Positions 29,857 through 57,368 of a stretch of 64,000 nt of DNA are shown here, piece by piece. The notes beneath the pieces are model-generated. The model was given only the letters and a program-made list of their open reading frames with translations, did not search any database and had not been told where the DNA came from. Source of the DNA: Opitutales bacterium (GTDB lineage: Bacteria > Verrucomicrobiota > Verrucomicrobiia > Opitutales > JABSRG01); the NCBI GenBank assembly GCA_049599475.1, contig JBMYOQ010000003.1:64001-128000 (forward strand), written 5' to 3'. The position numbers and the translations under genes were made by a program. The number at the start of each line of letters is the position of its first letter. Position 1 is the first letter of the stretch.

Positions 29857-29904
29857 TTCCAGCTTCAAGAATTCATATCGCGAACCGAATTTCATTTCAA
29901 TACC

Positions 29905-30393: not shown

Positions 30394-30406
30394 GTTACAA
30401 CACATC

Positions 30407-30715
30407 ATGAAAAAGGAATATTCCGACAATACCCTAACGATTCAGATGGAAGAAAACCTAGTGTCCTCTGTATCCAGCAACATCCTACAGACTTGGAAAG
30501 AGTGGCTAGCCGAGCTTTCTGAGACCCCCGATATCGTTATCGATATCGAGAAATGTGAGATTATTGATTCCGAAGGGATCAATCTTATCATCGGTCTCTA
30601 CCGCGAGTGCACCAGCAACAGTCGCAATTTCCAAGTGACCAACCCTTCGGCTGAGAATCTACGCCTTTTCGGCATCTTAAAACTCTCCCGAATATTCGGC
30701 CTTCAGCCTGCCTAA
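30407..30715 (+). CDS. STAS-domain anti-anti-sigma factor
   Basis: IVIDIEKCEIIDSEGINLII..VTNPSAENLRLFGILKL. Start at ATG 30407 (102 aa). Confidence 0.85.
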   Translation: MKKEYSDNTLTIQMEENLVSSVSSNILQTWKEWLAELSETPDIVIDIEKCEIIDSEGINLIIGLYRECTSNSRNFQVTNPSAENLRLFGILKLSRIFGLQPA

Positions 30716-30757
30716 GCTGAACGTTTCCGAAGCCTCAATTTAATTACCCTGCCACCT

Positions 30758-33700: not shown

Positions 33701-33880
33701 GACATTCCAATCATAGCGCTTACTGCTCTTTCAGGTAAAACGCATTCAGACTTTGGATACGAATCTGGTGTCGATGCCTACGAGACAAAGCTCGATAAAG
33801 AAGGCCTCCGAGAGACCATCGAGCGTATCATGAAGGAGCGCCAAGTAAACCCGGCTCACGCGGCGCTGTTAACCTCTTAA
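30758..33880 (+). CDS. cheA: Hybrid CheA (Hpt, dimerisation, HATPase, two CheW domains, C-terminal REC)
   Basis: FRAVHSIKGASG, LMNLAGEMVLSRNQL, HMIRNCCDHG, GFSTAEQISDVSGRGVGMDVV, two CheW-like segments and LLVTDIKMP. Confidence 0.95.
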   Translation: MDDELLELFVQESEEHLDNLEPALLALEKDHSDEAVINEIFRAVHSIKGASGFFGLDRISQMAHIMENLMSQVREHVMEVDNAMVEALLKGTDRLRMMLDNCGESNEIDITTEVDVIKQILENHGDSSAAAAVDSEQESDKDPSDIEGFRPDPYVLMNGLRHGHNYYVVKLNLIRDVHAHQRKPFDFFKEIEDCGEFIDSRTDISGITGLDDAGAADPTFSFFFSTVMVPDLAKEIFDVPPEQVCQISDDTIKKYIDAYGARESEEGAAAEAESASTEVVDDAESEKVDVESLKDVTTPPFPKRTPEEKSEEPAKETKPQPKAKEPEKPAPAKSGPPAKGPARKVEETIRVSVTVLDDLMNLAGEMVLSRNQLVRLAEENKNQNPGLNKAVHSISYITSDLQEKVMQTRLQPVGMLFNKFTRIIRDLSSKLGKEISLEISGEEVELDKSIIEGLSDPLSHMIRNCCDHGVETPDERKANGKDPKGRVQLRASHAGDKVLIEIVDDGRGIDPAKIKAKAVEKGVISQEEADAIHDQQAAMLIFAPGFSTAEQISDVSGRGVGMDVVRTNIEGLGGSVELTSQPGNGTRFALTLPLTLAIVPSMIVASGGGRFAVPQVNLEEIVHLQGQHQIEFIHGSPVYRLRGRLIPIVSLAQVFATEPGDRFMNSQARQHIPENSYIVILNLEKSQFGLVVDGLHDSEEIVVKPLSAHIKSAQCYSGATIMGDGSVAMILDIQGIANLASVESRDFEAEAEAEEEDGEAIQQILAFRNHPDERFAISLPLVSRIERIHKSQLERIGDNEFIKHRDTSLRVIRLENYVNITKHIDQIDNYTLIIPKLVCKPIGILVSEVEDAIATRVKLDTGSVRTEGAIGSAIIDNELTLFVDIYDILERADPEAYAFSKASPDLASNKILLAEDTHFFQAVVGNYLREFSKDVTVVPNGRDAFELLEKEDFDLLVTDIKMPVMNGFELTSKIRSTGRLKDIPIIALTALSGKTHSDFGYESGVDAYETKLDKEGLRETIERIMKERQVNPAHAALLTS

Positions 33881-33884
33881 TCCA

Positions 33885-35054
33885 ATGCATAAACTCGGTA
33901 AACGCGTCTTAATTGTCGACGATTCGGCTATCTATCGACGCATCTTTGAGCAAGCAGCGAAAACGCTGCCTGAAGTCAAAGACGTAATTACTGCAAACAG
34001 TGGGCGCGACGCAGTAAAAGCGATTCAAAAGGAAGAATTTGATCTGGTCCTTAGTGATATGGTGATGCCTGAAATGGATGGCATAACCACTACACGCGAA
34101 ATCTTAAAAGTAAGACCCGGGCAAGCAATTGTGGTAGTCAGTGGCGTATCGACACGCGAAGCATCTACGACCATGGAAGCCCTTAGTGCGGGTGCCATCG
34201 ACTTTATACCCAAGCCTAAATCTGGCAGCATGCAGGATAATATGTCCTCGATTGCTCGCTCAATCAAAGAGCTGCTCTCGGCGGCAACGCGACCAATCAC
34301 GCGCAGTTCTCGCTTAGAAACAGAATGGAAGAAAGAGCCCACAAAACCTCCGGTTAAGAGTCCATCTATCGGAAGCCCTAAACTATCCCAGGTTCCTGAG
34401 AGAAAATCGATAATCGCTCAGGCCAACATGGGTCAATTCAACGCAGACTTAGTCTTGATTGGGATATCAACGGGAGGCCCCAACACGCTGCAAAAAATGC
34501 TCCCGCTGCTGCCCAAAGACTTTGGTGCTCCAATCATCATTGTACAACACATGCCCGAGGGTTTCACCCAAGCGCTCGCACGTCAGCTCAACAACTCCTG
34601 TAATCTACATGTCAAAGAGGCCGATGAAGGAGAGATTGCCGAGCGCGGCACCATCTATATCTCAAAAGGCGGAAAACACCTTGTTGTGGGTGAAAAGAAA
34701 GGCCCAGGCCGGTATTTACTCAAATATGAAAATAGCCCGCCCGTAAATTCATGCAAGCCAGCAGTCGACGTGCTCTATTCGAGCGTCGCCAAACTCAGCG
34801 ATATCAAAGTGGTCTCGATGATCCTGACTGGGATGGGATCTGATGGTGCAAACGGAGTAAAAGAACTCATTTCCTCAAAGAGCATTCGCACATTCTCGAT
34901 TACCCAAAACGCAGAAACGTGCGTCGTCTACGGTATGCCACGCGCAGTCGACGAGGCCAACCTTGCAGACGAATCCCTACCCCTTCAATCAATACACGAA
35001 CGACTCTGTCAGCTAGTCAGAGCATCTCATTTTACTGCCCGAACCGTTGCCTAA
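33885..35054 (+). CDS. cheB: Chemotaxis response regulator methylesterase CheB
   Basis: REC plus the catalytic triad motifs GISTGG, QHMP and GMGSDG; VVYGMP. Confidence 0.95.
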   Translation: MHKLGKRVLIVDDSAIYRRIFEQAAKTLPEVKDVITANSGRDAVKAIQKEEFDLVLSDMVMPEMDGITTTREILKVRPGQAIVVVSGVSTREASTTMEALSAGAIDFIPKPKSGSMQDNMSSIARSIKELLSAATRPITRSSRLETEWKKEPTKPPVKSPSIGSPKLSQVPERKSIIAQANMGQFNADLVLIGISTGGPNTLQKMLPLLPKDFGAPIIIVQHMPEGFTQALARQLNNSCNLHVKEADEGEIAERGTIYISKGGKHLVVGEKKGPGRYLLKYENSPPVNSCKPAVDVLYSSVAKLSDIKVVSMILTGMGSDGANGVKELISSKSIRTFSITQNAETCVVYGMPRAVDEANLADESLPLQSIHERLCQLVRASHFTARTVA

Positions 35055-35066
35055 GAAATTTCTATT

Positions 35067-35924
35067 GTGAACGCCACCACACCAGCCCCGACCACCTCCC
35101 GAGTATCCAAAGAAACATACGGTGTTCTAGTAGATTGGATCGAGCGTAATTGCGGTATATCTCTTGGAGACTCAAAGGCATACCTGGTGGAGACCCGCTT
35201 CGCTCCCATCCTCATAAAACTCCAGTGCCAAAGTTTCGACGACCTCGTCAAAAAGCTAAAGACATCCGCCGGAACTGCTATTAAGGATGACATCATAGAT
35301 GCGATCACCACCAATGAGACGCTTTGGTTTCGAGACCCCAATATCTGGAGCCACCTAGAAAGCGGCTTCCTCAAGGAATTTCTAGAGTCCAGCTCATCTA
35401 AGAAACGAATTTGGTCGGCAGCCGCGTCGTCAGGACAAGAGATTTATTCACTCGCCATGCTTATGGATAAGCTATCACGCAAATATCCAGACCTGCGCAA
35501 CAAAGTAATGGCCACAGAATTACTCGCCACCGATGTATCCAAGAACATCTTAAACATCGCACAGAAGGGCCGCTACTCGCGCCTCGAGATGTCCCGAGGA
35601 CTCGATGAGGAATATAAAAACCGATATTTCGATAAAGACCGTCTATTCTCCTCGATAAAGCGAGACATTAAAGCACGCGTAAAATTCCAAGCACACAACC
35701 TCCAATCACCCTTTGGACAGCTTGGAAAATTCGACATCATTTTATGCCGCAACGTCACCATCTACTTCTCGAGAGAATTCAGACAAGACCTGCTCAATCG
35801 CCTGGACGCGGCTCTCAATCCGGGTGGCGTACTCATTCTCGGAGCTACAGAGAGCATAATCGGATTTAAAACCAATCTCAAAAACCGCCCAGGACAACCT
35901 CCTAGTTTTTACTTTAAGGATTAA
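35067..35924 (+). CDS. cheR: Chemotaxis methyltransferase CheR
   Basis: TTNETLWFRD, IWSAAASSGQEIYS, ATDVS and FDIILCRNVTIYF. Confidence 0.94.
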   Translation: MNATTPAPTTSRVSKETYGVLVDWIERNCGISLGDSKAYLVETRFAPILIKLQCQSFDDLVKKLKTSAGTAIKDDIIDAITTNETLWFRDPNIWSHLESGFLKEFLESSSSKKRIWSAAASSGQEIYSLAMLMDKLSRKYPDLRNKVMATELLATDVSKNILNIAQKGRYSRLEMSRGLDEEYKNRYFDKDRLFSSIKRDIKARVKFQAHNLQSPFGQLGKFDIILCRNVTIYFSREFRQDLLNRLDAALNPGGVLILGATESIIGFKTNLKNRPGQPPSFYFKD

Positions 35925-35925
35925 C

Positions 35926-36306
35926 ATGAAAAAGGCCCTACATATCGATGATTCCTACACGGTTTATCAGATCGTGAGCTCCGCAGCATCCGTTCTCGAA
36001 GTGGAAGTTCTCCATGCTTCAAACGGCAGTGACGGTCTAGCTCTCTTGGAGGAATTCCACGCTGATCTCAGCTTAGTCATACTCGACTTCAATATGCCCG
36101 GAGCAAACGGCTTAGAGATCTTGAAAGACATCAAATCCAATCCTAATACCAAAAACATCCCTGTGATGATGCTCACATCTGATGGGGATCCTGGATTGGT
36201 TATGGATTTCATCAAAGCCGGAGCGGCAAACTATCTCAACAAGCCCTTCACCCAAGAGGATCTCATCAACAAGATGATGGGCTGTGTGGGAGAAGCGACC
36301 CTCTAG
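35926..36306 (+). CDS. Single-domain response regulator (CheY-like)
   Basis: HIDDS, ILDFNMP, MMLTS and YLNKPF. Confidence 0.9.
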   Translation: MKKALHIDDSYTVYQIVSSAASVLEVEVLHASNGSDGLALLEEFHADLSLVILDFNMPGANGLEILKDIKSNPNTKNIPVMMLTSDGDPGLVMDFIKAGAANYLNKPFTQEDLINKMMGCVGEATL

Positions 36307-43517: not shown

Positions 43518-45716
43518 ATGCAAGCTTCGAGCGAACTCTCATACGGACTCCGGCGCACCCTGCTCATCAAGGTGCTGTCCAAGCCTCAACCAACAGCAGA
43601 GGATGTCCAAGCCGTCATCGAGCTAACCTCGTCGAAAATCGTTGAGCTCCTCCATGCTCAATCCATGACATTTTATCTGTTAGACGACGAGGAGATCACC
43701 TTTCGTCACGTTTATTATTCGCCCACTCTCTGGGAGAACGCTCCGGACAAAGAGGCTCAATTCAATGCCCAGGCTGAGAAATTATTGAAAATCCGCCTTC
43801 CGATGGGCAAAGGGATCGTCGGAAAGGTCATTTCCACAGGACAACCCCTTTTCTTCTTCCAGGGCGACGGCTCAGGGAATGAGATGATATCCCTGTCGGA
43901 TGCAGCCGGTTTCGATATCATGGCTATGGCTACCGTGCCGCTCATCGCTGCAGGACGCGTCATCGGAGCGGTACAGATGCTCAATAAAGAGCCAGATGCC
44001 GACACACAAATTTTTGAAGAGGAAGACTTGAGTGTCTTGCGCGAGGTCGCGGAATACGCCGCTCCTCTGATCCAACGCATGATGAATCCTGAGTATGCCC
44101 TTAGCGACCAGGATACTGCAAAATTCGTTGCCCGGTTCACGGATACTCCACTGTTGGCGACTCGGGATGAGGTGGACATCGATGACAAGCTAATGGAAGT
44201 CACCGGCGCCGAGGTTGTTCGCCGCACAAAGATCCTCCCCTTCAAACGTATTTCTCCCACAGCGGTTGAGGTGCTCATGCCCAACCCGCTCGATTACCAG
44301 ATGCGCGAGTCGTTCACGGCCACCACGGAGATGCACATTGAAGAGGTCTATGTGGCTCCAGCCTCCCTGATCGATCAGCTGCTCAACGAGTTTTTTCCAG
44401 AAAAGCCCGAAGAACAATCGCACACAGACAGTGCCGAGATACATAAGCTGGCCGATGCCCTCGGTGATGAGTTTTCAGTCGATGAAGATACCGAGGAAGG
44501 GGGAGGTCTCGACGACGAGGAAAGCGCGCCCATCATTCAACTGGCAAACCGCGTTATCGAAGATGCCTACGTTTCCGGAGCTTCCGATATCCATATCGAA
44601 CCTCAAGAAACCGAGCTCATTGTCCGCTACCGGGTCGACGGCGTTTGTCACGAGAAGTTAAAGCTTCCCGCTAAACTTGCCGGATCGCTCGTTGCCCGCC
44701 TGAAAGTAATGTCGGAGCTCGATATTGCTGAAAAACGCCTCCCTCAGGACGGGCGTATCGTATTTAAGAAGTTCACAAAGAAGAATATCGATATCGACCT
44801 ACGGGTTGCCACCGGGCCCATGAACTTTGGTGAAAAGGTCGTCATGCGGATCTTGGACAAATCCAAGTCTGCATTACCAATCACCGCTCTCGGTTTCTCC
44901 GAGGAAAACCTCACCCGCTACCGCGCTTGTATTCAGCAGCCGTATGGGATGATCCTACACTGCGGTCCAACCGGTTCGGGTAAGTCCATGACTCTGTTCT
45001 CGGCGCTCCGCGAAATAGCGACTCCGGATATCAATATCCAAACCGCGGAAGACCCGATTGAGTATACCATCCCCGGCATCAATCAGATGCAGATGAAAAA
45101 GGAGATCGGACTCACCTTCGCCCGCGCCTTGAGAGCCTACCTCCGGATGGACCCAGACATCATTCTCGTGGGCGAGATTCGCGACCAAGAGACCGCCGAA
45201 ATTGCCGTTGAAGCGGCTCTCACGGGTCACTTACTCCTTTCCACGCTTCACACCAACGACGCACCGAGCACCGTGGCCCGTTTCACAGACATGGACATCG
45301 AGCCGTTCATGATTTCGTCTTCGATGCTAGTAGTCTGCGCTCAGCGTTTGATTCGCCGGGTGTGCAAAGATTGCCGTCAGCTCTATACGCCTCAGGACAA
45401 CGAGGCAGAGATCCTCGAACGCGCGATCGGCTGGGTGGGTGAATGCTACAAAGCTAGCGAAAAAGGATGCCCCAAATGCGGCGGCTCCGGCATGAAGGGC
45501 CGTGTAGGTATTCACGAACTCATGCAAAACAATGAGGACCTCACCAAGGCGATCAACGAAGGCCGCGAAACCGCAGAGCTCAAGCGCATCGCCATGGCCT
45601 CCGGCATGAAAACCCTTCACCAAGACTCCATGCTCAAGGTAAAGGAACACCTCTCCACGGTCCTCGAAGGCATCTCCAACGTGCCGCCAGATATGATACG
45701 TTTGGAAGATCAGTAA
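43518..45716 (+). CDS. GAF-domain-fused PilB/GspE-family assembly ATPase
   Basis: N-terminal GAF; ASDIHIEP, LDIAEKRLPQDG, Walker A GPTGSGKS, Walker B VGEIRD, LHTND and the CKDC..CPKC Zn motif. Confidence 0.92.
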   Translation: MQASSELSYGLRRTLLIKVLSKPQPTAEDVQAVIELTSSKIVELLHAQSMTFYLLDDEEITFRHVYYSPTLWENAPDKEAQFNAQAEKLLKIRLPMGKGIVGKVISTGQPLFFFQGDGSGNEMISLSDAAGFDIMAMATVPLIAAGRVIGAVQMLNKEPDADTQIFEEEDLSVLREVAEYAAPLIQRMMNPEYALSDQDTAKFVARFTDTPLLATRDEVDIDDKLMEVTGAEVVRRTKILPFKRISPTAVEVLMPNPLDYQMRESFTATTEMHIEEVYVAPASLIDQLLNEFFPEKPEEQSHTDSAEIHKLADALGDEFSVDEDTEEGGGLDDEESAPIIQLANRVIEDAYVSGASDIHIEPQETELIVRYRVDGVCHEKLKLPAKLAGSLVARLKVMSELDIAEKRLPQDGRIVFKKFTKKNIDIDLRVATGPMNFGEKVVMRILDKSKSALPITALGFSEENLTRYRACIQQPYGMILHCGPTGSGKSMTLFSALREIATPDINIQTAEDPIEYTIPGINQMQMKKEIGLTFARALRAYLRMDPDIILVGEIRDQETAEIAVEAALTGHLLLSTLHTNDAPSTVARFTDMDIEPFMISSSMLVVCAQRLIRRVCKDCRQLYTPQDNEAEILERAIGWVGECYKASEKGCPKCGGSGMKGRVGIHELMQNNEDLTKAINEGRETAELKRIAMASGMKTLHQDSMLKVKEHLSTVLEGISNVPPDMIRLEDQ

Positions 45717-45760: not shown

Positions 45761-47869
45761 TTGAGCTTGTCGAATACCTCTCAAGTTTTGCGCAAAGCAA
45801 CCACAGTCAAAAATTGGAAGTCAGCATGCAATCAAGCGTCTTATGAATCCACCTTGGAGAAATTCGCGGGTAGTGCAGCTGGCCACGCCGCCCAATGTGA
45901 AGAGCTTTTCTTAAGCCTCGGCAGCCGAATGATCGAAATCAGTTCGGAGACCCCAAAGATCATTGAAAACGCACAGGCTACGGTTGAACTCATTTCAGAA
46001 GACCTGAAAAATCAGAGCCTCGAAACCCTCATCGATTCTCTTTTCCATTCAATGGAGTCCTCCGTCGCTCTGCTAGAAACCGAAGAGCAAAGCAGTGAAA
46101 TTTTCCTTTCTGTATGTAAGAGCCTCACAGAAATTCAAAACGACTTCAAAGGTCACCTGCTCACCTTAAAAACCCTCTCCGTGGGTTTCGGTATCCAAGG
46201 AGCCTCCATCCCCGGCGCAGAGCAACGGTTCAAGCCCTTCGTTCTAGAGATGCAGGATTTCATATCCAAAATCGAAAAAACATTCGCCCAGCTCCAAACC
46301 CACAATCAAGAGGGCACTCAGAAAGCCATCGATCGCTCGCATGCCGTGACCACAACGGTAGCACGACTTCAAAAGCTAAAAGAACAATCCAAAGCGGAGA
46401 TCAAAGAGGCACTCAACTAATGGGAAGAGGTCAACAAGGAGCTTACCCTCTCGATGCAGGCCATCGAGAAAATTACAAACCGCGTCGCTCTGGCTTCGAA
46501 TACTATCGTCGGGCTTATGCAAACCGGCGACCGCATACGGCAAGCAGTTGAGCATATTCAAAGTGGCCTAGAATCGATCGACCCGAGATCTCTAGATCCA
46601 AAGCTTAGAAAGCTAATTGCGCCCAAAAAGCGACAGAAGACAGGTCAGTCCCTAGCTATTTTAAAACTTCAGGCGGCTCAGTTAGAATACATTTCAGACG
46701 ACCTTCTTTCTGCCAGAGATGGAATCGTCTCTCAATTCAGCGAACTCCATCTCTGCATGCAGGAACTTTCTGAACGAATCAGCCTTTCAGAGTCTACAGA
46801 AGACAATTCCCTGAGTCCCGAGAAGCTAGTCAACCAACTCACCGAAGTAGACCATCTAATCGAGGAAATTAGTGAGGAGCTCACCCACTCCAATGATATC
46901 CGCGAGGATAGCGTCCGAAACATTGGAGCTATTCTCACCCAAGTGGACGCTATCGAGGAGACTGGATTCGACATGCAAGTAAACGCGCTCAACGCGGTCA
47001 TCAACGCCTCGCAGATTGGGGAATCAGGGGCCTCACTTGCAGTACTTGCAGAGGAGACCATGCGTTTGAGTCAAGTAATGGATACAAGCATCGGTAAAGT
47101 CTTAGACGAGGCCAAATCCCTCCAATCCGATGTCTCTACCACAGAAGAATCCACCGATTTCGGAGAATCCCGAGCAGCATTCTCTAAGGTTCGAAACAAC
47201 CTCTCCTCTTCAAGCGCCCAATGCGCAGAGAAAAGGGCCTCGATCGAATCCGGTATGATGAAATTGAATAAAGTAATTACCAACGCGCGCCCTCAGCTCG
47301 AGTCACTCGAACACTTGGTGCAAGAAATGGATGCTATCAAGTCAAAGATCACAGACTACCTAAAGCCTTGGGAAAGTTTCTTCGGCACCGAGTGGATTGC
47401 CTCATACCTCAGCATGGATACCAGTCAATACACTATGGAGCATGAGCGCGTGGTTCACCAACAAGTTGCAAATCTAGCCAATCAAGTCCACGAAAACACG
47501 AAGACGGCTCCACCTCCTCAAGACGAGGGAGAGATTGAAATGTTTTCCGAAAGTGATGAAGTAGACATCGGTTTTCCCAAGGGCGACGACACTCCAGCGA
47601 AGAATACGTCACCAGCTTCACAAAACGCATCCCACGAAGACATTGAACTCTTTGATAGCGGAGATGATATAGAGCTCTTCGATAACGATGACGGCATCGA
47701 ACTTTTCGAAGGAGAATCAAACAAATCCGAAGCACCAACTTCTGAAAGTGCAAAAAAAACCTCATTTGAAGACGACGGAATCGAGCTCTTCGATGATGAC
47801 GATGGGATAGAACTCTTTGATGACGAGCAGGCAAATTCCGCCGAAGAGTCTACACGACCTCATGATTAG
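45761..47869 (+). pseudogene. Soluble MCP-like chemotaxis protein interrupted by one in-frame TAA (46418-46420)
   Basis: ORFs 45761-46420 and 46454-47869 are in the same frame and read KEALN*WEEVNKELTLSMQ. MCP-like ALNAVINASQIGESGASLAVLAEE, QTGDRIRQAVEHI and YTMEHERVVH motifs; C-terminal IELF repeats. Confidence 0.75.
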
Positions 47870-48102: not shown

Positions 48103-48465
48103 ATGAAATCAATATTAATTGCGGATGACTCCGCAAGCATGCGCCAGATGGTGGAGTTTACCCTTCGTGGAGCTGGCTATAACGTAACCAGCTGTCCTGA
48201 CGGCGAAGCGGCCTCCCAAACCGCACAAGGTCAGGCCTTCGACATGGTCCTGACCGACCTCAATATGCCCGGGAAAAACGGCATAGAATTGATTCGCTCC
48301 ATCCGCGGAAGTGGCCCCAATGCGACCAAACCGATAATCATGCTCACCACCGAGTCTGATCCTGAAAAGAAGCAACAGGGCAAAGCTGCCGGAGCCACCG
48401 GTTGGATCGTGAAACCCTTTGATGGAGATAAACTGATCGCGGTCGTGAAGAAAGTCCTTCGCTAA
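48103..48465 (+). CDS. cheY: Chemotaxis response regulator CheY
   Basis: ADDSASMRQM, LTDLNMP, MLTTES and GATGWIVKPF. Confidence 0.95.
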   Translation: MKSILIADDSASMRQMVEFTLRGAGYNVTSCPDGEAASQTAQGQAFDMVLTDLNMPGKNGIELIRSIRGSGPNATKPIIMLTTESDPEKKQQGKAAGATGWIVKPFDGDKLIAVVKKVLR

Positions 48466-48508
48466 AATCACCGGCAATACACCACCCTTTTAGCACTGCC
48501 CTGCTACT

Positions 48509-50632
48509 ATGCCAGATTCCGACCCATCCAAGGCATTCGCTGCCGCTTTCGTCGAAGAAGCCGCGGATCTCCTCGAAGAGATCGAAAACACGCTCATGGA
48601 GCTCGAACAAAACACGAGCAACCGTGACCTACTCGACCGCCTTTTCCGGGCTATTCACACGCTCAAAGGCTCGGGATCGATGTTCCAGTTCGAGGCCCTC
48701 GCCAATTTTGCGCACATTGTAGAGACGGTGATGGACCGAGCTCGCGACGGGAAAATCGATTTCACAGAAAAGCTGGCTGATACGATTTTACGCTGCCGCG
48801 ATTACTTCAACGAATTGCTGCAAGCCCAGCTAAACAGCATCAACGCATGCCCCGACACCGGAAAGCAGCTTGAGACCGAGCTGAAAGCCTACCTCGAGAC
48901 ATCCGCATCGAGAGATGAACCGACAGACACCGACTCCGCCAGCGATGACACCGAAGACGATCCCAATGCGGAATACGTAACCTGGGTATATTTTAAACCC
49001 GATCCCCTCATTTCAAAAAACGGTAACGACCCCGCAATATTGCTCGGAGACCTTCAGGAAACGGGCCCTAGTGTAGTGATCGTAGATGACAAATTCGAAC
49101 CCGAGGATATCGAAGACTTCGATCCCACGAATTGCTACCTGTCCTGGGACATTTTTATCGGAGGATATATTTCTGACGAAGCGATTGAAGATGTCTTTTT
49201 ATTTGTAGCGGAAGAAAGCGATATCGTCGTCAACCGTATTAAATTGCCCGGCTCAAATCCCCCCTCGCTCGAAGAGCCTCCAAAAATCGCCGCGAAAGCA
49301 TGGGAAGAAAGCCCTGATCGCGAACGCTCCCGTGCATTAGCTCATCTAAAGGCTGCCTTCACTCCACAAGTCCCGGAACAAGCTGCTACTCAACCCGAGG
49401 CAAAGTCTCAATGCGAAGCCGCACCGAAGACTGCCACAAATACGAAATCCCAAGAGAGTATTCGTGTCGCCGCACCCCGCATTGATGATCTCGTAAATCT
49501 AGTCGGCGAACTCGTGATTAACCAATCGCGCCTCGTTCAATTGGCCCAAGGCCTAGGCTCCGCCGAAATGGTAACCGCAGTCGAGGAAACGGAACGCCTT
49601 GTCGGGAATCTGCGCAACAACGTGTTGAGCATTCGTATGATGCCGGTGGGTACTATGTTTACCAAAATAAAACGCTTAGTCCGCGACCTTTCCCAGACAC
49701 TGGAAAAGCCGGTAGAGCTGACTTTAAAAGGCAGCGAAACGGAACTCGATAAATCAGTCATTGACCAGCTCTTCGATCCCTTGGTTCACATCATCCGCAA
49801 CTCGATGGACCACGGAATCGAGTCCGCTGAACAACGCGCCGCATCTGGAAAGCCTGAAAAAGGCAATCTCACCCTCGAGGCCATTCACAAGGGCGCATCA
49901 GTCATGATTCGTATTCAGGACGATGGCGGCGGCCTCAATGCTGAGAAAATCCTCCAGCGTGCGATCGAGCGAAAGATCGTGCCTGAGAATGTCCAACTGA
50001 GCGAAAACGAAATTTACGATCTGATATTCAAACCCGGCTTCTCCACAGCTGAGACCATTTCCCAAGTATCTGGGCGCGGAGTCGGCATGGACGTCGTAAG
50101 GCGCAGCATCGAGGAGCTACGCGGACAAATTCATCTAGACTCTGAACCAGGCAAAGGCACTACGCTTTCACTCACACTTCCGCTCACGCTAGCCATTATC
50201 GACGGCCTTCTCGTAGAAGTCGATCGGGACCGCTTCATCATACCGATGTCTCTGGTCACGGAAAATGTCGAAATCAGCAACGAGGAACGTTCACAAAACA
50301 ATGGTCGCAATTTAATTACTGTAAGAGGTAAGCAAATACCCTTTCTACGCCTGCGAGAAGTATTCCAATACGCCACGACCCCCGACCCCGATCTTGAAAA
50401 GGTTGTATTATTAGAAACGGACAACGGGCGCATTGGCTTTGTCGTAGATCGCGTCATAGGCACTCACCAAACGGTCATACAATCCCTGGGGCGCACCCTC
50501 GCCCACATCGACCTCGTATCCGGATCTACAATACTTGGAGATGGCTCTGTAGCTTTGATTCTAGACGTCCCGGGAGTCGTCAAAAGTGCAAGCGAACAAG
50601 ACCGCTCAACTCAATTACGGCAAAGCGCCTAA
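48509..50632 (+). CDS. cheA: Chemotaxis histidine kinase CheA
   Basis: FRAIHTLKGSG, P2-like region, LVNLVGELVI, HIIRNSMDHGIE, SGRGVGMDVV and one CheW domain. Confidence 0.96.
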   Translation: MPDSDPSKAFAAAFVEEAADLLEEIENTLMELEQNTSNRDLLDRLFRAIHTLKGSGSMFQFEALANFAHIVETVMDRARDGKIDFTEKLADTILRCRDYFNELLQAQLNSINACPDTGKQLETELKAYLETSASRDEPTDTDSASDDTEDDPNAEYVTWVYFKPDPLISKNGNDPAILLGDLQETGPSVVIVDDKFEPEDIEDFDPTNCYLSWDIFIGGYISDEAIEDVFLFVAEESDIVVNRIKLPGSNPPSLEEPPKIAAKAWEESPDRERSRALAHLKAAFTPQVPEQAATQPEAKSQCEAAPKTATNTKSQESIRVAAPRIDDLVNLVGELVINQSRLVQLAQGLGSAEMVTAVEETERLVGNLRNNVLSIRMMPVGTMFTKIKRLVRDLSQTLEKPVELTLKGSETELDKSVIDQLFDPLVHIIRNSMDHGIESAEQRAASGKPEKGNLTLEAIHKGASVMIRIQDDGGGLNAEKILQRAIERKIVPENVQLSENEIYDLIFKPGFSTAETISQVSGRGVGMDVVRRSIEELRGQIHLDSEPGKGTTLSLTLPLTLAIIDGLLVEVDRDRFIIPMSLVTENVEISNEERSQNNGRNLITVRGKQIPFLRLREVFQYATTPDPDLEKVVLLETDNGRIGFVVDRVIGTHQTVIQSLGRTLAHIDLVSGSTILGDGSVALILDVPGVVKSASEQDRSTQLRQSA

Positions 50633-50671
50633 ACATCAAAATTTAACAATAAATCCACACTGCCAAATAAT

Positions 50672-52477
50672 ATGAGATTCACCATAAAATTAAAACTAGC
50701 GGCAGGATTTGCCGTCATCCTCGGCCTCTTGGCATTCGCGTCATACGAAAGCCTCGTCAAGATGGACGAAATGCACACGCAGATCGAAACCCTCGTGGAC
50801 GAGTCTGCAGAACGCGTGCGCCTCGCAAAAACCGTTGACATTGAAATGCTCGAAATTGCGCTCGATGAAAAGAAGATCATTCTTGCCGCAGACGCCAAGG
50901 AGAAGGAAAAGATCTTCAAGCACTCGGATAAGATTATCCAATCGATGAAATCCGACCTGAAAGCCTTGGCCGCAATCGAAGACGATGCCGGGCTCCGGAA
51001 ACTCGAGAAATTCCAAACCGTTTTCGATGAATATCTCGGCTTTAATAAAGAGATCCGCGAGATGTGTCTAGCCGGTCAAAAAGATGAAGCTCTGGCACTC
51101 GCCATGGGAGACAGCAAAACGCTTTTAGACGAAGCCTCTGCATTAATGATGGAGGTCGTAAAAGCCAGCGAACAGTCGATGCAAAGGGATAAAGCCGCCT
51201 CCGAAGAGACTTATAGCGCCGCTCTTAGCCTGCTTATCACCGTCTCTGCCGTAGCCATGATTGTCGGAACTGTCATCGCGTTATATATCGGCGTATCCAT
51301 TTCACGTGGCGTGAATAAAGCCGTAGAAGTCTGCCAAGCCGTATCAGTCGGAGACCTCACCCAAAAGGTCGAAAACCTTTCCAATGATGAGGTAGGCGAC
51401 CTACTTAAGGCTCTAAACCGGATGATCGATAACCTCGCAGAAACGGCTCATACCGCCGAGAAAATCGCCGGCGGCGACCTGCGCGTTAAGGCAAAGATTT
51501 TATCCGAAAAAGACACCTTAGGGCAGTCCCTTGACAGCATGATTCAGAGCCTCCAGCGCGTGGTCGGTGAAGTCGCATCAGCCTCAGACCAAGTTGCTGC
51601 TGGCAGCCAGGAATTGAGCGCGACGGCCCAGCAACTTTCGCAAGGCGCCACCGAGCAGTCCTCTGCTGCCGAGGAAACATCCGCCTCAATCGAAGAGATG
51701 TCCGCGGGCATCCAGCAAAATGCAGACAACTCTCGCCAAACTGAGCAGATCGCGATCAATGCCGCTGCCAATGCCAAAGATGGCGGAGAAGCTGTCACGC
51801 AAACGGTCGAATCCATGCGTTTGATTGCCGACAAAATTTCTATCATTGAAGAGATATCTCGGAAGACCGACCTGCTCGCCCTGAATGCCGCAGTCGAAGC
51901 CGCACGCGCCGGAGAACATGGGCGCGGGTTCGCTGTAGTGGCCTCTGAAGTACGCAAACTTGCCGAACGCAGCCAAGCATCCGCTGCCGATATCCGCGAC
52001 CTATCCGCCAATGGCGTATCCATTGCGGAGAAGGCCAACGGACTGATCGAAGAACTCATTCCAAACATCGGCCGCACCTCGGATTTGGTCCAAGAAATCA
52101 GCGCCGCGAGTGCTGAGCAAAATACCGGAGCTTCGCAAATCACCAAGGCGATCCAAGAGCTCGACGAAGTCATCCAGCAAAACGCATCGGCTTCTGAGGA
52201 AATGGCATCGACTTCCGAGGAGCTTTCATCTCAAGCAGACCTACTGCTCAGTTCTGTATCCTTCTTCAAAACAGACGGCGCTCCCCCGAGCAGCCAGTCC
52301 GCGCCTCAACAAGCGACACCCGCCCCGGCGCCCGTGTCAAGCCCGGCAAGCAAACCCGCCGTAAAAGCTCAGGAACCGGAGCGAGACAGCGGAAGCGGCC
52401 CCATGATCGACTTGGATGCCGATGACGATTTTGCCAACGCTGAGGCAGGCTCAACAGGCGGCTTCGAGCGCTACTAA
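50672..52477 (+). CDS. Methyl-accepting chemotaxis protein (TM, four-helix sensor, TM, HAMP, signalling domain) with C-terminal pentapeptide GFERY
   Basis: [34 protein letters not shown]; two TMs; Pro/Ala-rich tether ending GGFERY. Confidence 0.96.
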
Positions 52478-52493
52478 CTCAGGATCGCCAAGC

Positions 52494-53030
52494 ATGAAAT
52501 CCTTCGATGCAGAGAGCCTCACAGGCCAATATATTACCTTCAAGCTGGGCGATGAAACCTTTGCAGTCAGCGTCCATCAAGTCAGAGAGGTTTTAGACAT
52601 CACCGAGTTTGCCCGGATACCCAACGCTCCCGACTACATGCGCGGAGTCGTAAACGTGCGCGGTAGCGCGATCCCCGTGGTCGACCTTCGCAAAAAATTC
52701 GGACTCCCTAGCACTGAACCCTCGGACGACTCACGCATTGTCATCATCGAACTCCAGACTGAGGATGAAGTCTGCGTGGTCGGCGGTATGGCAGATTCTG
52801 TGAAAGAGGTCCTTGAGCTTCGGTCCAGCGATATCGACGAGCCCCCGAAGCTCGGCGTTAATTGGCACAGCGAGTTCATCCAAGGTCTGGGGAAACAAGG
52901 CGACGAGTTCATCATACTGCTCAACATGCAGCACCTGTTTGAAATGGATGATCTCGCCGACACGCTCACCGAACTCAATCAAGACCAACTTGAAGCGGCC
53001 GCGCAACCTGCAGCGCAACCCGGTAAGTAA
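52494..53030 (+). CDS. cheW: Chemotaxis coupling protein CheW
   Basis: QYITFKLG..FAV..VREV, GVVNVRG..PVVDLR and DSVKEV. Start at ATG 52494. Confidence 0.94.
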   Translation: MKSFDAESLTGQYITFKLGDETFAVSVHQVREVLDITEFARIPNAPDYMRGVVNVRGSAIPVVDLRKKFGLPSTEPSDDSRIVIIELQTEDEVCVVGGMADSVKEVLELRSSDIDEPPKLGVNWHSEFIQGLGKQGDEFIILLNMQHLFEMDDLADTLTELNQDQLEAAAQPAAQPGK

Positions 53031-53039
53031 GGCCAAACC

Positions 53040-53876
53040 GTGTTCACTAAGACACCCCTAAGCGAGCTCGTCTTCAAAAAGCTGACGCAGCATATCCATG
53101 AGCACATGGGAATCATGCTAACGGATAAAAAGCGATCCATGCTCGAGAGCCGAATGGGCCGAAGGTTGCATAATCTTCAACTCAAGGATCTCAATACTTA
53201 TGGGAATGGGGTGCTGAACCGAAGCCTACCCGCTTCTGAGATGTCGCTCTTCTATGACCTCGTAACCACTAACAAGACAGATTTTTATCGGGAGCCTGTG
53301 CATTTCGATTTTTTGATAAAAGACGTTGTCAGCAAATACGTAAGAAGTAGCCAGGCGAGCAAGCGCTTTAAAATTTGGTCGGCTGGGTGTTCAGAAGGCA
53401 TGGAGGCCTACACAATCGGCATGCTGCTGAGCGACGTCTGCAAAAAGCATCCACATTTCGACTACAGGATTCTCGGTACCGACATTTGCAACGCCGCACT
53501 GAAGCGCTCGCGAAATGCAATATACAATAAAAGAGAAATCGAACCTATACCCGAAAAAACGCGGCAAAAATACCTACTCCGCGGCAAGGACAAAAATGAA
53601 GGCATTTACAAGATTGATCCCGCAATCACTCGGCGCTGTAGCTTCCAAACTCTCAATTTCATGGAGGCCCCCTACCCCATTAAAAGCAAGTTCCATGTGA
53701 TTTTTCATCGCAACGTTCTCATTTATTTCGACAAGCCCACCCAAGAACACGTGGTCCGCAACTTAGTGGATCACCTATTGCCCGATGGTATCCTATTTAT
53801 CGGACATGCAGAATCCATTTCGGGTTTTAACCTACCTCTGAAAGCGCTAGGGCCCACCACGTTTCAAAAAATCTGA
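53040..53876 (+). CDS. cheR: Chemotaxis methyltransferase CheR
   Basis: TTNKTDFYREPVHF, WSAGCSEGME.YT, GTDI, RNVLIYFD and IGHAES. Confidence 0.94.
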   Translation: MFTKTPLSELVFKKLTQHIHEHMGIMLTDKKRSMLESRMGRRLHNLQLKDLNTYGNGVLNRSLPASEMSLFYDLVTTNKTDFYREPVHFDFLIKDVVSKYVRSSQASKRFKIWSAGCSEGMEAYTIGMLLSDVCKKHPHFDYRILGTDICNAALKRSRNAIYNKREIEPIPEKTRQKYLLRGKDKNEGIYKIDPAITRRCSFQTLNFMEAPYPIKSKFHVIFHRNVLIYFDKPTQEHVVRNLVDHLLPDGILFIGHAESISGFNLPLKALGPTTFQKI

Positions 53877-53894
53877 GTCCCCACATAATACCCC

Positions 53895-55010
53895 ATGAGC
53901 TCCCCGAAAAAGATACAAGTGGTCATCGTCGACGACTCCGCAGTCGTCCGACAAACACTCAGCCACATTCTAAATTCAGACCCAGATATAGAAGTCGTCT
54001 CCGTAGCCCAAGACCCCTATATCGCGGTTGAGAAGATACGTAAGCACGCGCCGGATGTCTTGACCCTCGATGTCGAAATGCCGCGCATGGATGGCATCAC
54101 TTTCCTCGAGAAAATAATGCGCCAACACCCCATTCCAGTCGTAATGTGTTCAAGTCTCACGGAGGCCGGTGGTGAGCTCTACATGCGGGCCATCGAACTC
54201 GGAGCCGTTGAAGTAATTACCAAACCTCAAGTGGGGGTAAAGGAATCGCTCATGGATGATTCCGTGCGTATTTGCGATGCCATACACGCGGCAGCCCGCG
54301 CAAAAAGCAAAGGCAAAAAGGAATACCGCAAACCTTCCAGAGCCGCCTCCGAACCACGTCAATCAACTGAAAAGCTCAGTGCAGATGCCGTCTTACCCGC
54401 CACACGTCCCAAACACCTCAGAACCACAGAAAAAGTCTTCGTCATTGGCGCATCGACAGGTGGGACTGAGGCGCTAAAAGTGCTCCTAGAGACGTTTCCA
54501 CGAGATTGCCCAGGCACTGTAGTCGTACAGCACATGCCTGAAAATTTCACCGCTGCGTTCGCCAAGCGTTTAGACGGACTGAGCGCAGTAAACATAAAGG
54601 AAGCCGAAAACGGCGACGCCGTTCTCCCCGGTCATGTCTATATCGCTCCGGGAAACAAACATACCTTATTACGGCGCAGCGGTGCCCGTTACTACCTAGA
54701 CGTCCAAGAAGGTCCGCTCGTGAGCCGACACCGTCCTTCCGTCGACGTGCTCTTTCGCTCGGCAGCCCAGAACGCCGGCCCAAACTGTATTGCATCCATA
54801 CTTACAGGGATGGGCGACGACGGCGCCACTGGCATGAAAGAACTCCAAGACTCGGGGGCCTACACAATCGCTCAAGATGAAGCGAGCTGCGTCGTCTACG
54901 GCATGCCCGCCGAAGCGGTTGCACGCGGGGGTGTATCCAAAATATTACCTTTAAACGACATCACATCCGCCATGATCGATGCCGCTAAAGCAGCGAGCCC
55001 AGCAGCGTAA
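53895..55010 (+). CDS. cheB: Chemotaxis response regulator methylesterase CheB
   Basis: [34 protein letters not shown] and GMGDDGA. Confidence 0.96.
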
Positions 55011-55049
55011 AAAATTTAGGTTCAACAGGACAAACGTTAGGAGAATAAC

Positions 55050-55490
55050 ATGCCACTCGTAAGACTCATCTATTTCAGCCATAGAAACGAAGACGTCACC
55101 ATTGACGAAATCGAGAAAATTCTAGAAGTTTCCAGGAAGAATAATCGCGGAAAAAATATTACCGGGATACTTTGTTTTCATCAGAACTATTTCTTTCAAG
55201 TTCTCGAAGGGCGCCGCGCCGCCGTGTGTCATCTATACAATAAAATTGCGAAAGATCCACGGCACAGCAATGTCACGATCTCAGACTTCCGAGAAGTCCC
55301 TAATCGCGAATTCAGCGACTGGAACATGGCATATTTTCCCGAATCCAAAATTACTACGCCCGACATACTCGCACACTCGTGCGATGACGATCTGAATTTG
55401 GACGAAATGAGAACCGAGAGCATTATTAAGTTAATCCTTTCTTTCAAAGAAAGAATCCCCGAAGCCCAAACGGCAGGTGCGATAAAGTAA
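55050..55490 (+). CDS. Stand-alone BLUF blue-light photoreceptor
   Basis: LIYFS (Y8), SRKNN (N32), ITGIL, FFQVLEG (Q50), IAKDPRH and FSDWNM (W91, M93); RBS AGGAGA at ~55039. Confidence 0.93.
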   Translation: MPLVRLIYFSHRNEDVTIDEIEKILEVSRKNNRGKNITGILCFHQNYFFQVLEGRRAAVCHLYNKIAKDPRHSNVTISDFREVPNREFSDWNMAYFPESKITTPDILAHSCDDDLNLDEMRTESIIKLILSFKERIPEAQTAGAIK

Positions 55491-55527
55491 ACGGGGAAAA
55501 TTGACCGTGTGGGAGGGCTGAGCTCCG

Positions 55528-55667
55528 GAGGGTGTCTCAAAACTTCGAATATACCTCTATGCGGTAGCGCCCGTTCACCGCAACGGGCATGGGCGCGTCA
55601 GCCAGTGCGGCTAAGGCCGAGTCATGCCGGTTCGGTGACCCGGCGCTACCAATCCTGAGACACCCTC
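55528..55667. repeat. Nested inverted repeats: GTAG REP doublet inside a 12-bp perfect outer IR
   Basis: Outer GAGGGTGTCTCA (55528-55539) / TGAGACACCCTC (55656-55667). Inner GGTAGCGCCCGTTCACCG (55563-55580) / CGGTGACCCGGCGCTACC (55633-55650). Each inner arm forms its own hairpin. Confidence 0.7.
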
Positions 55668-55735
55668 TCCGTATCCCCCGAGAATGTGTGGGTAACATCG
55701 TAAATCCCCGTTGCTTCAATTGCACCCCAAACGGC

Positions 55736-56506
55736 CTAAGGCGCCATGCTTATTTCGATACGTGACACAGACTCGACAGTATCATCATCCCCTTCTTTCG
55801 GGTTGGCTGCGCCAAATCCGGTAACACGCTCAATCTTTTTGGGGTCTAGCGCATAGTAAACTAAGGCGCGCCTCACCGCATTTGCCCGATCCGAGCTCAA
55901 CTCCCACGGACCGTATTCGGGCTCAGCTTCATCCTTAAGTTCGTCGCCAATGTGAGCATCTATGCGTATCCGCATGGGGTGTTGCTCCGTGATCCACGAA
56001 ATATTTTGCATTACCAGGTTGCCCCATGGAGTAAACTGAGTCGAATCGCCTTCGAAAAGTGGTTTATGGCTGCGATTAAACACCTGCAGGCGCAGGCCGT
56101 CCGAGGTAACCGTTACCTTCACGGGAGAATCTTCGGCATCCGTTTCTACGTTTAAGTACTGTAAGAATTCCTGCACGACCGTTTTCACATAGTCGATAGA
56201 GTTATCCCCCATACTATTCTCCGCTTTTCCGGATTGCGCCTCACGGGTATCGGCCGAGGATCCCCCCATATCGATTGGGCTATCACTGGATTGCCCACTC
56301 TCCATATAGCGGAACGGGTTCTGGAACAATTGAACCGACTCCGAGAGCGAAGCCTCATCCTGTCCGATAATCCAGAGAACCATAAAGAGCGCCATCATCG
56401 CACAAAAGAAGTCCGCAGCCGCGACTTTCCAGGCACCGCCATGGAGTTCGACGACAGCTCCCTCATCTACCGGATGACCACGAAGCTCTTTTTCGGGATC
56501 CTTCAT
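55736..56506 (-). CDS. motB: Flagellar stator protein MotB
   Basis: HGGAWKVAAADFFCAMMALFMVLW (essential Asp); OmpA-like PWELSSDRANAVRR..RIEI. Confidence 0.92.
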   Translation of the reverse strand: MKDPEKELRGHPVDEGAVVELHGGAWKVAAADFFCAMMALFMVLWIIGQDEASLSESVQLFQNPFRYMESGQSSDSPIDMGGSSADTREAQSGKAENSMGDNSIDYVKTVVQEFLQYLNVETDAEDSPVKVTVTSDGLRLQVFNRSHKPLFEGDSTQFTPWGNLVMQNISWITEQHPMRIRIDAHIGDELKDEAEPEYGPWELSSDRANAVRRALVYYALDPKKIERVTGFGAANPKEGDDDTVESVSRIEISMAP

Positions 56507-56513
56507 TAAGCGT

Positions 56514-57368
56514 CTACTTCGCTCCCTTTACGAGTTCTTCCAGCTCAGCGGCCGACGGCTTCATTTCCTCTTCAATAAGCCTTCGCCCCATCTCTACGGC
56601 CATGATCGGGGCCATCCCTTTCGCAAATGCTTCAAGACACGCCGCAAGGACTTTGTAATATTGCACCTCTACTTCATTAGCAAAGTGCAAACGTTGGCAT
56701 AAGGGGCCCACAAAACCATAAGCAAAGTATACCCCTAGGAAGGTACCAGAAAGCGCTGCAGCGACCTTATAACCTACCTTACCAGCACCTTGGTCCAAAA
56801 CACCCATCGTTACAATAATCCCCAATACCGCCGCACAAATACCTACCGCAGGTAACGATTCCGCCGCCAAGTGCATTACAGTGATCGGCTTCTCATACTC
56901 TTCTTCGAGGCTGTGGATGTCCGATTTCATCAAGCCTGGCAGTTGCTCGGGCTTGATCTTGGCATCAATAATCGGGCGGAGATTATTGATCAAAAAACTG
57001 GTTCGATGCTCATTTGAAACAAAGGTCTGATACTTACTTAAAATACTACTCGCCGCTGGGTCTTCCATGTGCTCATCGAGCGCAATCAGACCATTCTTAC
57101 GCCCGATCGTGAACAGCTCGAACAGGAGCTGGAGCATTTCTTCAAAATCCTTGCGCGAAGAGCCTCCGCCTTTCAAGACACCTAATACAGCTCCAATCGT
57201 CCCCTTGAGCGCTGAAGGGGGCGATGCAATCACACTCAATCCTCCAGCAATACCGCAAATCAAGATCCACTCAGACAAGTGGAATAAGGCAGCAAGTTTG
57301 CCACCGGCGAGGAGGAATCCTCCTGCGGTACAACCTAATACAATTAATATCCCTACAACTGATGACAT
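56514..57368 (-). CDS. motA: Flagellar stator protein MotA
   Basis: GGFLLAGG, RKNGLIALD, LPAVGICAAVLGII, AALSGTFLGVYFAYGFVGP and AVEMGRR. Confidence 0.93.
   Translation of the reverse strand: MSSVVGILIVLGCTAGGFLLAGGKLAALFHLSEWILICGIAGGLSVIASPPSALKGTIGAVLGVLKGGGSSRKDFEEMLQLLFELFTIGRKNGLIALDEHMEDPAASSILSKYQTFVSNEHRTSFLINNLRPIIDAKIKPEQLPGLMKSDIHSLEEEYEKPITVMHLAAESLPAVGICAAVLGIIVTMGVLDQGAGKVGYKVAAALSGTFLGVYFAYGFVGPLCQRLHFANEVEVQYYKVLAACLEAFAKGMAPIMAVEMGRRLIEEEMKPSAAELEELVKGAK

What the first reader, a model, noticed from the sequence alone, without database searches (positions are those of the whole stretch)
48103..57368. BLUF blue-light photoreceptor as the last gene of a complete che operon, facing motAB: candidate phototaxis system
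Seen: cheY-cheA-mcp-cheW-cheR-cheB is followed 39 nt later by a stand-alone BLUF gene with its own RBS and no obvious terminator in between. All photochemical residues are present (Y8, N32, Q50, W91, M93, the same numbering as cyanobacterial PixD). motBA/fliA/flhF lie immediately beyond. Established: short BLUF proteins signal by protein-protein contact (PixD-PixE, PapB-PapA, BlsA). Inference: here BLUF may feed light into the flagellar Che pathway via CheA/CheW, CheB/CheR or the MCP. That would give blue-light taxis in a Verrucomicrobiota-like heterotroph, which I do not recall being described.
Basis: partly seen in the sequence, partly recalled or inferred. Interest (0 to 1): 0.78.

Follow-up and report, generated by a model that had tools for sequence, protein, structure and literature searches.

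The report
Blue-light sensor ending F8 chemosensory operon
An intact blue-light sensor gene (BLUF) sits as the last gene of a spare, F8-class chemotaxis-like operon in a flagellated marine bacterium, and the same pairing recurs in six other lineages, so light likely feeds into this poorly understood pathway, probably tuning swimming or settling rather than steering the motor directly.

Summary
In detail: cheY-cheA-mcp-cheW-cheR-cheB, a 39-nt gap, then an intact short BLUF (Y8, N32, Q50, W91, M93; model TM 0.88 to Tll0078), converging on motB-motA. The operon is class F8 (34H receptor), an accessory system. One metagenome pattern scan found cheB-BLUF in 15 of 15 hits, six lineages, on a separate F8 branch; a single clade with this operon is rejected. 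The pairing is rare: 0 of 42 other F8-type operons, 0 of 12 BLUF+CheW genomes of this phylum. In Burkholderiaceae the same slot holds hemerythrins or REC-EAL genes. 'Phototaxis' is weaker than claimed: tested F8 CheY and the closest solved CheY do not bind FliM, motAB adjacency is absent in the congener, and the operon's lead gene is interrupted. It is not undescribed: Spongiibacter nanhainus has a BLUF beside che/motAB whose deletion removes blue-light motility effects (PMC8805636). This scan noted BLUF beside che clusters on other DNA before (e1-9864774, e1-3309854). No binding, co-transcription or behaviour was shown. Verdict: new variant of a known kind, interest 0.5.

The parts
45761..47869 (+). 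Lead MCP-like gene of the F8 cluster, interrupted by an in-frame TAA at 46418-46420 (219 aa + 471 aa in one frame); acidic IELF-repeat tail
   Evidence: Atlas look-alikes 0.94-0.96, MCPsignal on 27-38% of members; 21% over 438 aa to the intact 660-aa lead gene of a same-order F8 operon, E 1e-4; weak homology only
48103..48465 (+). CheY of F8 type (Trp at the beta5 switch position); closest solved structure V. cholerae CheY4
48509..50632 (+). CheA kinase (Hpt, dimer, HATPase, CheW domains)
50672..52477 (+). Transmembrane chemoreceptor, 4HB sensor, class 34H, C-terminal GFERY pentapeptide-like tail
   Evidence: 7-residue gap in each arm versus E. coli Tar/Tap
52491..53030 (+). CheW
53040..53876 (+). 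CheR methyltransferase
53895..55010 (+). CheB (REC + methylesterase; S187, H213, D309 invariant in 14 aligned F8 CheBs)
55011..55049 (+). 39-nt junction with AGGAGA ribosome-binding site, no terminator-like site found
55050..55490 (+). Short stand-alone BLUF photoreceptor, 146 aa, Y8/N32/Q50/W91/M93, two-helix C-terminal cap; the only BLUF in the genome
55520..55672 (.). Palindromic region holding a ~90-bp repeat (55563-55650) with 63 blastn hits genome-wide including self hits; could end both converging transcripts (inferred)
55736..56506 (-). MotB (separate, converging flagellar operon)
56514..57368 (-). MotA (separate, converging flagellar operon with fliA and an flhF-like gene upstream)

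Best explanation
The BLUF gene is an intact flavin blue-light sensor placed as last gene of an accessory F8-class chemosensory operon, and it likely acts as a soluble light input to that system, whose output would tune swimming or settling rather than switch the motor directly. Shown: gene order, intact photochemical residues, PixD-like fold, F8 class, recurrence in other lineages. Inferred steps: (1) it is co-transcribed with the operon; (2) blue light triggers the Tyr-Gln-flavin switch and moves the beta5/C-terminal cap, as established for BLUF proteins (own knowledge); (3) this changes its binding to the F8 array, most likely the 34H receptor or the CheA-CheW baseplate (BLUF-MCP and PYP-MCP fusions exist), less likely a REC domain of CheB or CheY (as PixD binds PixE); (4) CheA activity changes and reaches motility or attachment by cross-talk, not by CheY-FliM binding.
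For: Intact sensor and fold. 39-nt gap with RBS. 15 of 15 pattern hits in metagenome contigs are real cheB-BLUF pairs, gaps -8 to +46 nt in the 14 measured, with a 4-nt stop/start overlap in 5. 14 of 14 with a full methylesterase domain fall in the F8 clade (98/98); 6 of 6 receptors tested are 34H. Six lineages, with BLUF and CheB groups matching, so pairs were kept while the BLUFs diverged to 43-64% identity. One clade for all linked operons is rejected (AU p 3e-70): independent recruitment or repeated loss. The slot after F8-type cheB holds other small sensors or outputs: of 17 of 30 Burkholderiaceae candidates scanned, 4 hemerythrins, 3 REC-EAL, 2 MCPs. Precedent: Spongiibacter BLUF knockout (PMC8805636), BLUF-MCP fusions in Achromatium (bioRxiv 10.64898/2026.03.30.715255), PYP-MCP fusions (PMC12826048).
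Against: Rare: no BLUF in 12 F8 operons of the same order and of plasmids, none within 1.5 kb of 30 Burkholderiaceae F8-type cheB, 0 of 401 Burkholderiaceae genomes by pattern. The 7 closest operons (same order, 99/94 support) lack it, so in this lineage it is a single case. In the phylum, 19 of 31 BLUF genomes have no CheW match and 0 of 12 with both are linked. The pattern is biased: its CheB motif matched 15 of 15 F7/F8 CheBs and 0 of 7 others, and F8 cheB is usually the last gene, so the slot is open to any insertion. The operon shows decay (interrupted lead gene, no STAS). The window's receptor has a periplasmic 4HB sensor, unlike the PAS-bearing receptors of most linked loci. No expression, binding or behaviour data.
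Confidence: 0.48

Rival explanations
1. Direct light taxis: BLUF modulates F8 CheA, and phosphorylated F8 CheY binds FliM, giving a photophobic or photokinetic swimming response.
For: Complete Che core, flagellins and FliM with an N-terminal LSQSDID motif. L039 also has F8-BLUF converging on a flagellar flhA...fliA-cheY operon. Spongiibacter wild type spreads less under blue light and the BLUF mutant does not (PMC8805636).
Against: P. syringae F8 CheY1 showed no FliM binding and its mutant swims like wild type; V. cholerae CheY4, the closest solved relative, fails to bind FliM. 7 of the 8 receptors I could align (of 16 MCP matches) lack the 34H gaps and belong to other systems. The conserved system in kin is the cheA-REC cluster.
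Confidence: 0.14
2. BLUF is only co-regulated with the operon and signals to a non-Che partner, for example a transcription factor or c-di-GMP enzyme, adjusting expression of motility genes.
For: In Spongiibacter the measured effect includes BLUF-dependent induction of che and mot genes. In L031 and L035 a MerR/HTH_17-REC gene follows BLUF on the same strand. REC-EAL genes fill the same slot elsewhere. Known short BLUFs use non-Che partners (PapB, BlsA; PMC4844311 passages).
Against: No such partner gene lies next to the BLUF in this window, and the genes after BLUF differ among the six lineages while the che genes before it do not.
Confidence: 0.2
3. Hitch-hiker: the BLUF gene landed by chance at the open end of a decaying accessory operon and has no functional tie to it in this organism.
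For: Single case in its lineage; sister operons lack it. Lower GC than neighbours (43.5% versus 50.1 +/- 3.5%, about the 5th percentile of 617 similar-length ORFs). The BLUF does not group with BLUFs of its own order. A repeat element sits right after it. The lead gene is interrupted.
Against: Tight spacing with an RBS; recurrence and retention in six other F8 lineages; the Che core and BLUF frames are intact, and identical pieces occur in a second study's run.
Confidence: 0.18

Closest known systems
Spongiibacter nanhainus CSC3.9 BLUF I6N98_15960 with its che/motAB cluster (Shan et al. 2022, PMC8805636; read: abstract, sections 6, 7, 10 and passages)
   Same: Non-phototrophic marine bacterium; BLUF next to a che cluster and motAB; the authors propose signalling to CheA/CheW/CheY/CheR; knockout removes blue-light effects on soft-agar spreading and on che/mot expression.
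   Different: There the cluster lies downstream of BLUF with omitted gaps of 3,999 and 33,489 bp; here BLUF is the last gene, 39 nt after cheB. The class of that che system is not given in the text I read and I could not fetch its sequence; figures and supplements were not seen. No direct binding was reported in what I read.
PixD (Slr1694) / TePixD (Tll0078) with PixE
   Same: [quoted passage not shown]
   Different: 28-30% identity only; no PATAN-REC gene adjacent; PixD controls type IV pili in a phototroph; oligomer state not tested here.
F8 chemosensory systems (P. syringae cluster II, R. leguminosarum Che2, Agrobacterium second cluster)
   Same: 34H receptor in the cluster, core cheY/A/W/R/B, accessory role beside a main system (PMC7184735 passages, PMC11253619 sections 19 and 22 and passages, PMC8429497 passages); tree placement with Agrobacterium/Shinella-type clusters, apart from E. 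coli and Ralstonia F7.
   Different: No BLUF in the 42 other F8-type operons examined; STAS and CheD absent here; lead gene interrupted.
Photoreceptor-MCP fusions (BLUF-MCP in Achromatium, bioRxiv 10.64898/2026.03.30.715255; PYP-MCP, PMC12826048; passages read)
   Same: A soluble blue-light domain genetically tied to chemosensory signalling.
   Different: Those are single polypeptides; here the sensor is a separate gene. Both are bioinformatic assignments without a shown taxis pathway.

Membership tests
Short BLUF photoreceptors | BLUF domain above the Pfam cut-off, stand-alone with helical cap | tested here: met
   109.9 bits versus 25; model pLDDT 83.7 with two C-terminal helices; best Foldseek match Tll0078
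Short BLUF photoreceptors | Tyr, Asn, Gln, Trp, Met of the photocycle | tested here: met
   Y8, N32, Q50, W91, M93 in a gapless alignment to Tll0078, invariant in 18 aligned BLUFs
Short BLUF photoreceptors | Flavin binding and ~10-nm red-shifted signalling state | not testable with these tools
   Needs purified protein
F8 chemosensory class | Cognate 34H chemoreceptor | tested here: met
   7-residue gap in each arm versus Tar/Tap
F8 chemosensory class | CheA/CheR/CheB phylogeny with F8, apart from F7 | tested here: met
   100/99 clade with Agrobacterium, Shinella, Azospirillum, Methylosinus clusters; references were named F8 by gene order and 34H, and no stage-1/2 F7 reference was in the tree
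F8 chemosensory class | Score against the Wuichet-Zhulin class HMMs (MiST) | not testable with these tools
   Models not held
F8 chemosensory class | Usual accessory genes (STAS, often CheD, lead MCP-like gene) | tested here: not met
   STAS and CheD absent, lead gene interrupted; accessory, not class-defining, so membership stands
Flagellar phototaxis pathway | Flagellar apparatus encoded | tested here: met
   8 Flagellin_N matches, FliM, FliN, MotAB
Flagellar phototaxis pathway | Cognate CheY binds FliM | tested here: inconclusive
   By homology unfavourable; not measured for this protein
Flagellar phototaxis pathway | Photoreceptor physically coupled to the kinase complex; light-dependent swimming | not testable with these tools
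PixD-PixE system | Adjacent PATAN-REC partner gene | tested here: not met
   Neighbours are cheB and, converging, motB

The most novel reading that the evidence does not exclude
F8 chemosensory arrays take modular, stand-alone cytoplasmic sensors encoded right after cheB: BLUF for blue light, hemerythrin for oxygen. These dock on the array and set CheA activity without being fused to a receptor. That would give the first defined, switchable input for the F8 class and a new non-covalent way to couple a flavin photoreceptor to a chemoreceptor array, recruited at least twice.
Probability: 0.25. Interest if true: 0.8.

Novelty: new variant of a known kind. Interest (0 to 1): 0.5.

Why it matters
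F8 systems are widespread and their inputs and outputs are mostly unknown (PMC11253619; bioRxiv 10.64898/2026.05.11.724241, passages). A light-switchable protein encoded inside the operon would let one turn an F8 pathway on and off with light and read its output, which makes an open question testable. It would also extend BLUF-linked motility control from Spongiibacter to an unrelated non-phototrophic marine lineage. If the link is only positional, the finding is an ordinary BLUF at an operon end.

Tried and rejected
Homologue searches with the BLUF protein found little: 2 proteins, 3 genome loci, none che-linked, none in metagenomes. The fusion search found 2 longer proteins with BLUF only, weak evidence either way. 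Complex prediction (BLUF with CheB, CheY, CheW) was not available, so no structural test of binding exists. The profile search of representatives was not available. No RNA holder was listed, so co-transcription is untested; run X2 does not bridge the cheB-BLUF junction, and its contig over the TAA has only about 22 letters on one side. My early idea that the whole operon was a recent import from alphaproteobacteria was dropped: it is sister to F8 operons of its own order. Sigma-28 and sigma-54 motif scans upstream of cheY and of BLUF gave only 2-3-mismatch hits; not counted. No rhodopsin match, but the control rang nowhere, so absence is not shown. LOV and phytochrome were tested by short motifs only. 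Taxonomy of the metagenome loci could not be read, and the Atlas call on MotA did not place the organism. Paper searches without a hit: BLUF+chemosensory+gene neighborhood (74), BLUF+phototaxis+Gemmatimonas (75), short BLUF+genomic context+chemotaxis (109). Searches gave the papers cited; none of the passages I read reports BLUF in F8 operons. Subscription journals are mostly not searched.
Full report
Verdict. The gene arrangement is real, and the BLUF-che link is better supported than one window could show, because it recurs.

1. What is in the window. ORF calling and Pfam give cheY 48103-48465, cheA 48509-50632, mcp 50672-52477, cheW 52491-53030, cheR 53040-53876, cheB 53895-55010 and BLUF 55050-55490, all on +. 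The gap is 39 nt with AGGAGA before the ATG. No terminator-like site on + and no nearby sigma-70-like site were found (consensus scan only). The BLUF scores 109.9 bits, aligns without gaps to Tll0078, and its model (pLDDT 83.7) matches Tll0078 and Slr1694 at TM 0.87-0.90. It is the only BLUF in the genome. motB and motA converge from the other strand, behind a ~90-bp palindromic repeat found across the genome. A second che cluster (cheW, STAS, cheA-REC, cheB, cheR, cheY) lies at 29905-36306.

2. The organism. It is held in two seawater/marine metagenome runs, one of which may be the source. The genome encodes 8 Flagellin_N matches, FliM and FliN, 16 MCP matches, two photolyase-family genes and no reaction-centre match (control rang). 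'Verrucomicrobiota-like' fits the PSCyt2/PSD1/DUF1501 genes in the window (the link to PVC bacteria is recalled) but was not established.

3. Class of the operon. The receptor lacks seven residues in each arm relative to E. coli Tar and Tap, so it is 34H, the receptor class of F8 systems (PMC7184735, PMC11253619, PMC8429497). A CheA+CheR+CheB tree of 27 rows (L044 left out for lack of two genes) places it sister to F8 operons of its own order (99/94), next to Agrobacterium/Shinella-type clusters and apart from E. coli and Ralstonia F7. Such operons are patchy in the order: 3 of 150 other genomes matched the receptor at E <= 1e-75. They read lead gene, STAS, cheY, cheA, mcp, cheW, cheR, (cheD), cheB. 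Here STAS and cheD are missing and the lead gene has an in-frame TAA. Of 8 receptors I could align (of 16), only this one has the 34H gaps. The cheA-REC cluster is the one conserved in kin.

4. Is the link conserved in kin? No. BLUF was found in 6 of 61 relatives and 28 of 401 genomes of the phylum, both counts including this genome. Of 31 other BLUF-bearing genomes, 19 had no CheW match. In the other 12, BLUF lay on another contig or about 170 kb away (compared by eye). One, G050, has BLUF back to back with an orphan receptor. The congener G001 (86% complete, MotA 94% identical) has no BLUF match and an unrelated gene beside motB. None of 7 same-order and 5 plasmid F8 operons carries BLUF (positive control hit).

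5. Does it recur elsewhere? Yes. I scanned metagenome contigs with one pattern joining a CheB C-terminal motif to a BLUF motif 190-250 nt later. It matches the window once and none of 100 shuffles. It gave 15 loci, and all 15 are cheB followed by BLUF on the same strand. Where contigs are long enough the order is cheA-mcp-cheW-cheR-(cheD)-cheB-BLUF. Gaps run from -8 to +46 nt in the 14 measured (the pattern limits the range). Six of six receptors tested are 34H, and 14 of 14 full methylesterase domains fall in the F8 clade (no stage-1/2 F7 reference included). They form six lineages, five loci being near copies in one of them. BLUF groups mirror CheB groups, with BLUF identities of 43-64% within lineages, which points to long retention. 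These operons sit on another F8 branch than the window's (100/100 with Aeromonas), and one clade for all linked operons is rejected (AU p 3e-70).

6. Limits of that test. The CheB motif matched 15 of 15 F7/F8 CheBs and 0 of 7 others, and the BLUF motif 17 of 29 unlinked BLUFs. So 'all F8' is informative only against F7, and adjacency to cheB is built in, so it says nothing on the partner. The pairing is rare: 0 of 401 Burkholderiaceae genomes by pattern, although 47 of 401 hold an F8-type cheB by similarity, and 0 of the 30 best had BLUF within 1.5 kb. In those 30, I scanned 17 first-downstream candidates: 4 hemerythrins, 3 REC-EAL, 2 MCPs, 4 PAS proteins, 2 housekeeping, 2 no hit. The slot after F8 cheB thus looks like a variable accessory position rich in sensors and c-di-GMP outputs.

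7. Output. In P. syringae the F8 kinase mutant keeps chemotaxis but swims less, the F8 CheY mutant swims like wild type, and that CheY did not bind FliM. This window's CheY is closest among solved structures to V. cholerae CheY4, which fails to bind FliM (PMC3774744 passages). Direct motor control is therefore the less likely output. A soluble sensor in a small swimmer would in any case give a temporal, not directional, response (own knowledge).

8. Mechanism, committed. Shown: anatomy, class, recurrence. Inferred: co-transcription; a normal BLUF photocycle; light-dependent binding to the F8 array, most likely receptor or CheA-CheW baseplate, given BLUF-MCP fusions in Achromatium and 12 PYP-MCP fusions; and an indirect effect on swimming or attachment. 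Confidence 0.48. Rivals: co-regulation with a non-Che partner 0.20, hitch-hiker 0.18, direct light taxis 0.14. No structural test of binding could be run.

9. Prior art and novelty. Shan et al. 2022 (PMC8805636) describe a non-phototrophic marine bacterium with BLUF beside a che and motAB cluster and a knockout phenotype, and propose signalling to Che proteins; its figures and supplements, which I did not see, may show the class and order. This scan's earlier notes report BLUF beside che clusters in Gemmatimonas and at the end of F7 clusters (unchecked leads). What I did not find in print is BLUF as a recurrent terminal gene of F8 operons. That makes this a new variant of a known kind. Interest 0.5; the bolder reading (modular sensors docking on F8 arrays) has probability 0.25 and would deserve 0.8.

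Noticed in passing
L097, L101, L104, L106 (first gene after cheB): Stand-alone hemerythrin genes (126-131 aa) directly follow F8-type cheB in 4 of 30 Burkholderiaceae loci, the slot BLUF fills here; possible oxygen input to F8 systems.
   Followed up: partly
L089, L092, L107 (first gene after cheB): REC-EAL genes follow F8-type cheB, a candidate c-di-GMP output of F8 systems.
   Followed up: partly
window 45761-47869: Lead MCP-like gene of the F8 cluster with an in-frame TAA at 46418-46420 and a tail of acidic IELF repeats; intact 660-aa counterparts occur in same-order operons. Pseudogene, split gene or read-through is undecided.
   Followed up: partly
window 28189-36306: Second chemosensory cluster (REC-SpoIIE-HATPase, cheW, STAS, cheA with two CheW-like regions and REC, cheB, cheR, cheY), conserved in G001 and G003; likely the inherited system; class not tested.
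   Followed up: partly
window 55563-55650: About 90-bp palindromic repeat with 63 blastn hits in the genome, often at contig ends; REP- or MITE-like.
   Followed up: partly
L039:7148-8146: Two tandem BLUF genes after an F8 cheB, converging on a flagellar flhA...fliA-cheY operon, as the window's BLUF converges on fliA-motAB.
   Followed up: partly
L031:5107-6848 and L035:468-1166: BLUF is followed on the same strand by a MerR/HTH_17-REC regulator (and a REC-HATPase gene in L031), recalling the BluF-BluR pair of E. coli (recalled).
   Followed up: no
L012:9712-12389 (G050): BLUF back to back with an orphan CZB-HAMP chemoreceptor; this BLUF has Gly and Tyr-Gln-Leu in place of the usual Gln and Trp-x-Met.
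   Followed up: no
L051, L056, L059, L061, L062: A group of same-order BLUFs keeps Tyr and Gln but has Phe or Tyr and Lys-Met where Trp-x-Met is usual.
   Followed up: no
window 43518-45716: GAF domain fused to a PilB/GspE-type secretion ATPase; a G003 counterpart appears as two ORFs.
   Followed up: no
G000:C1:18457-25886 (outside the window): Six flagellin-family genes in tandem.
   Followed up: no
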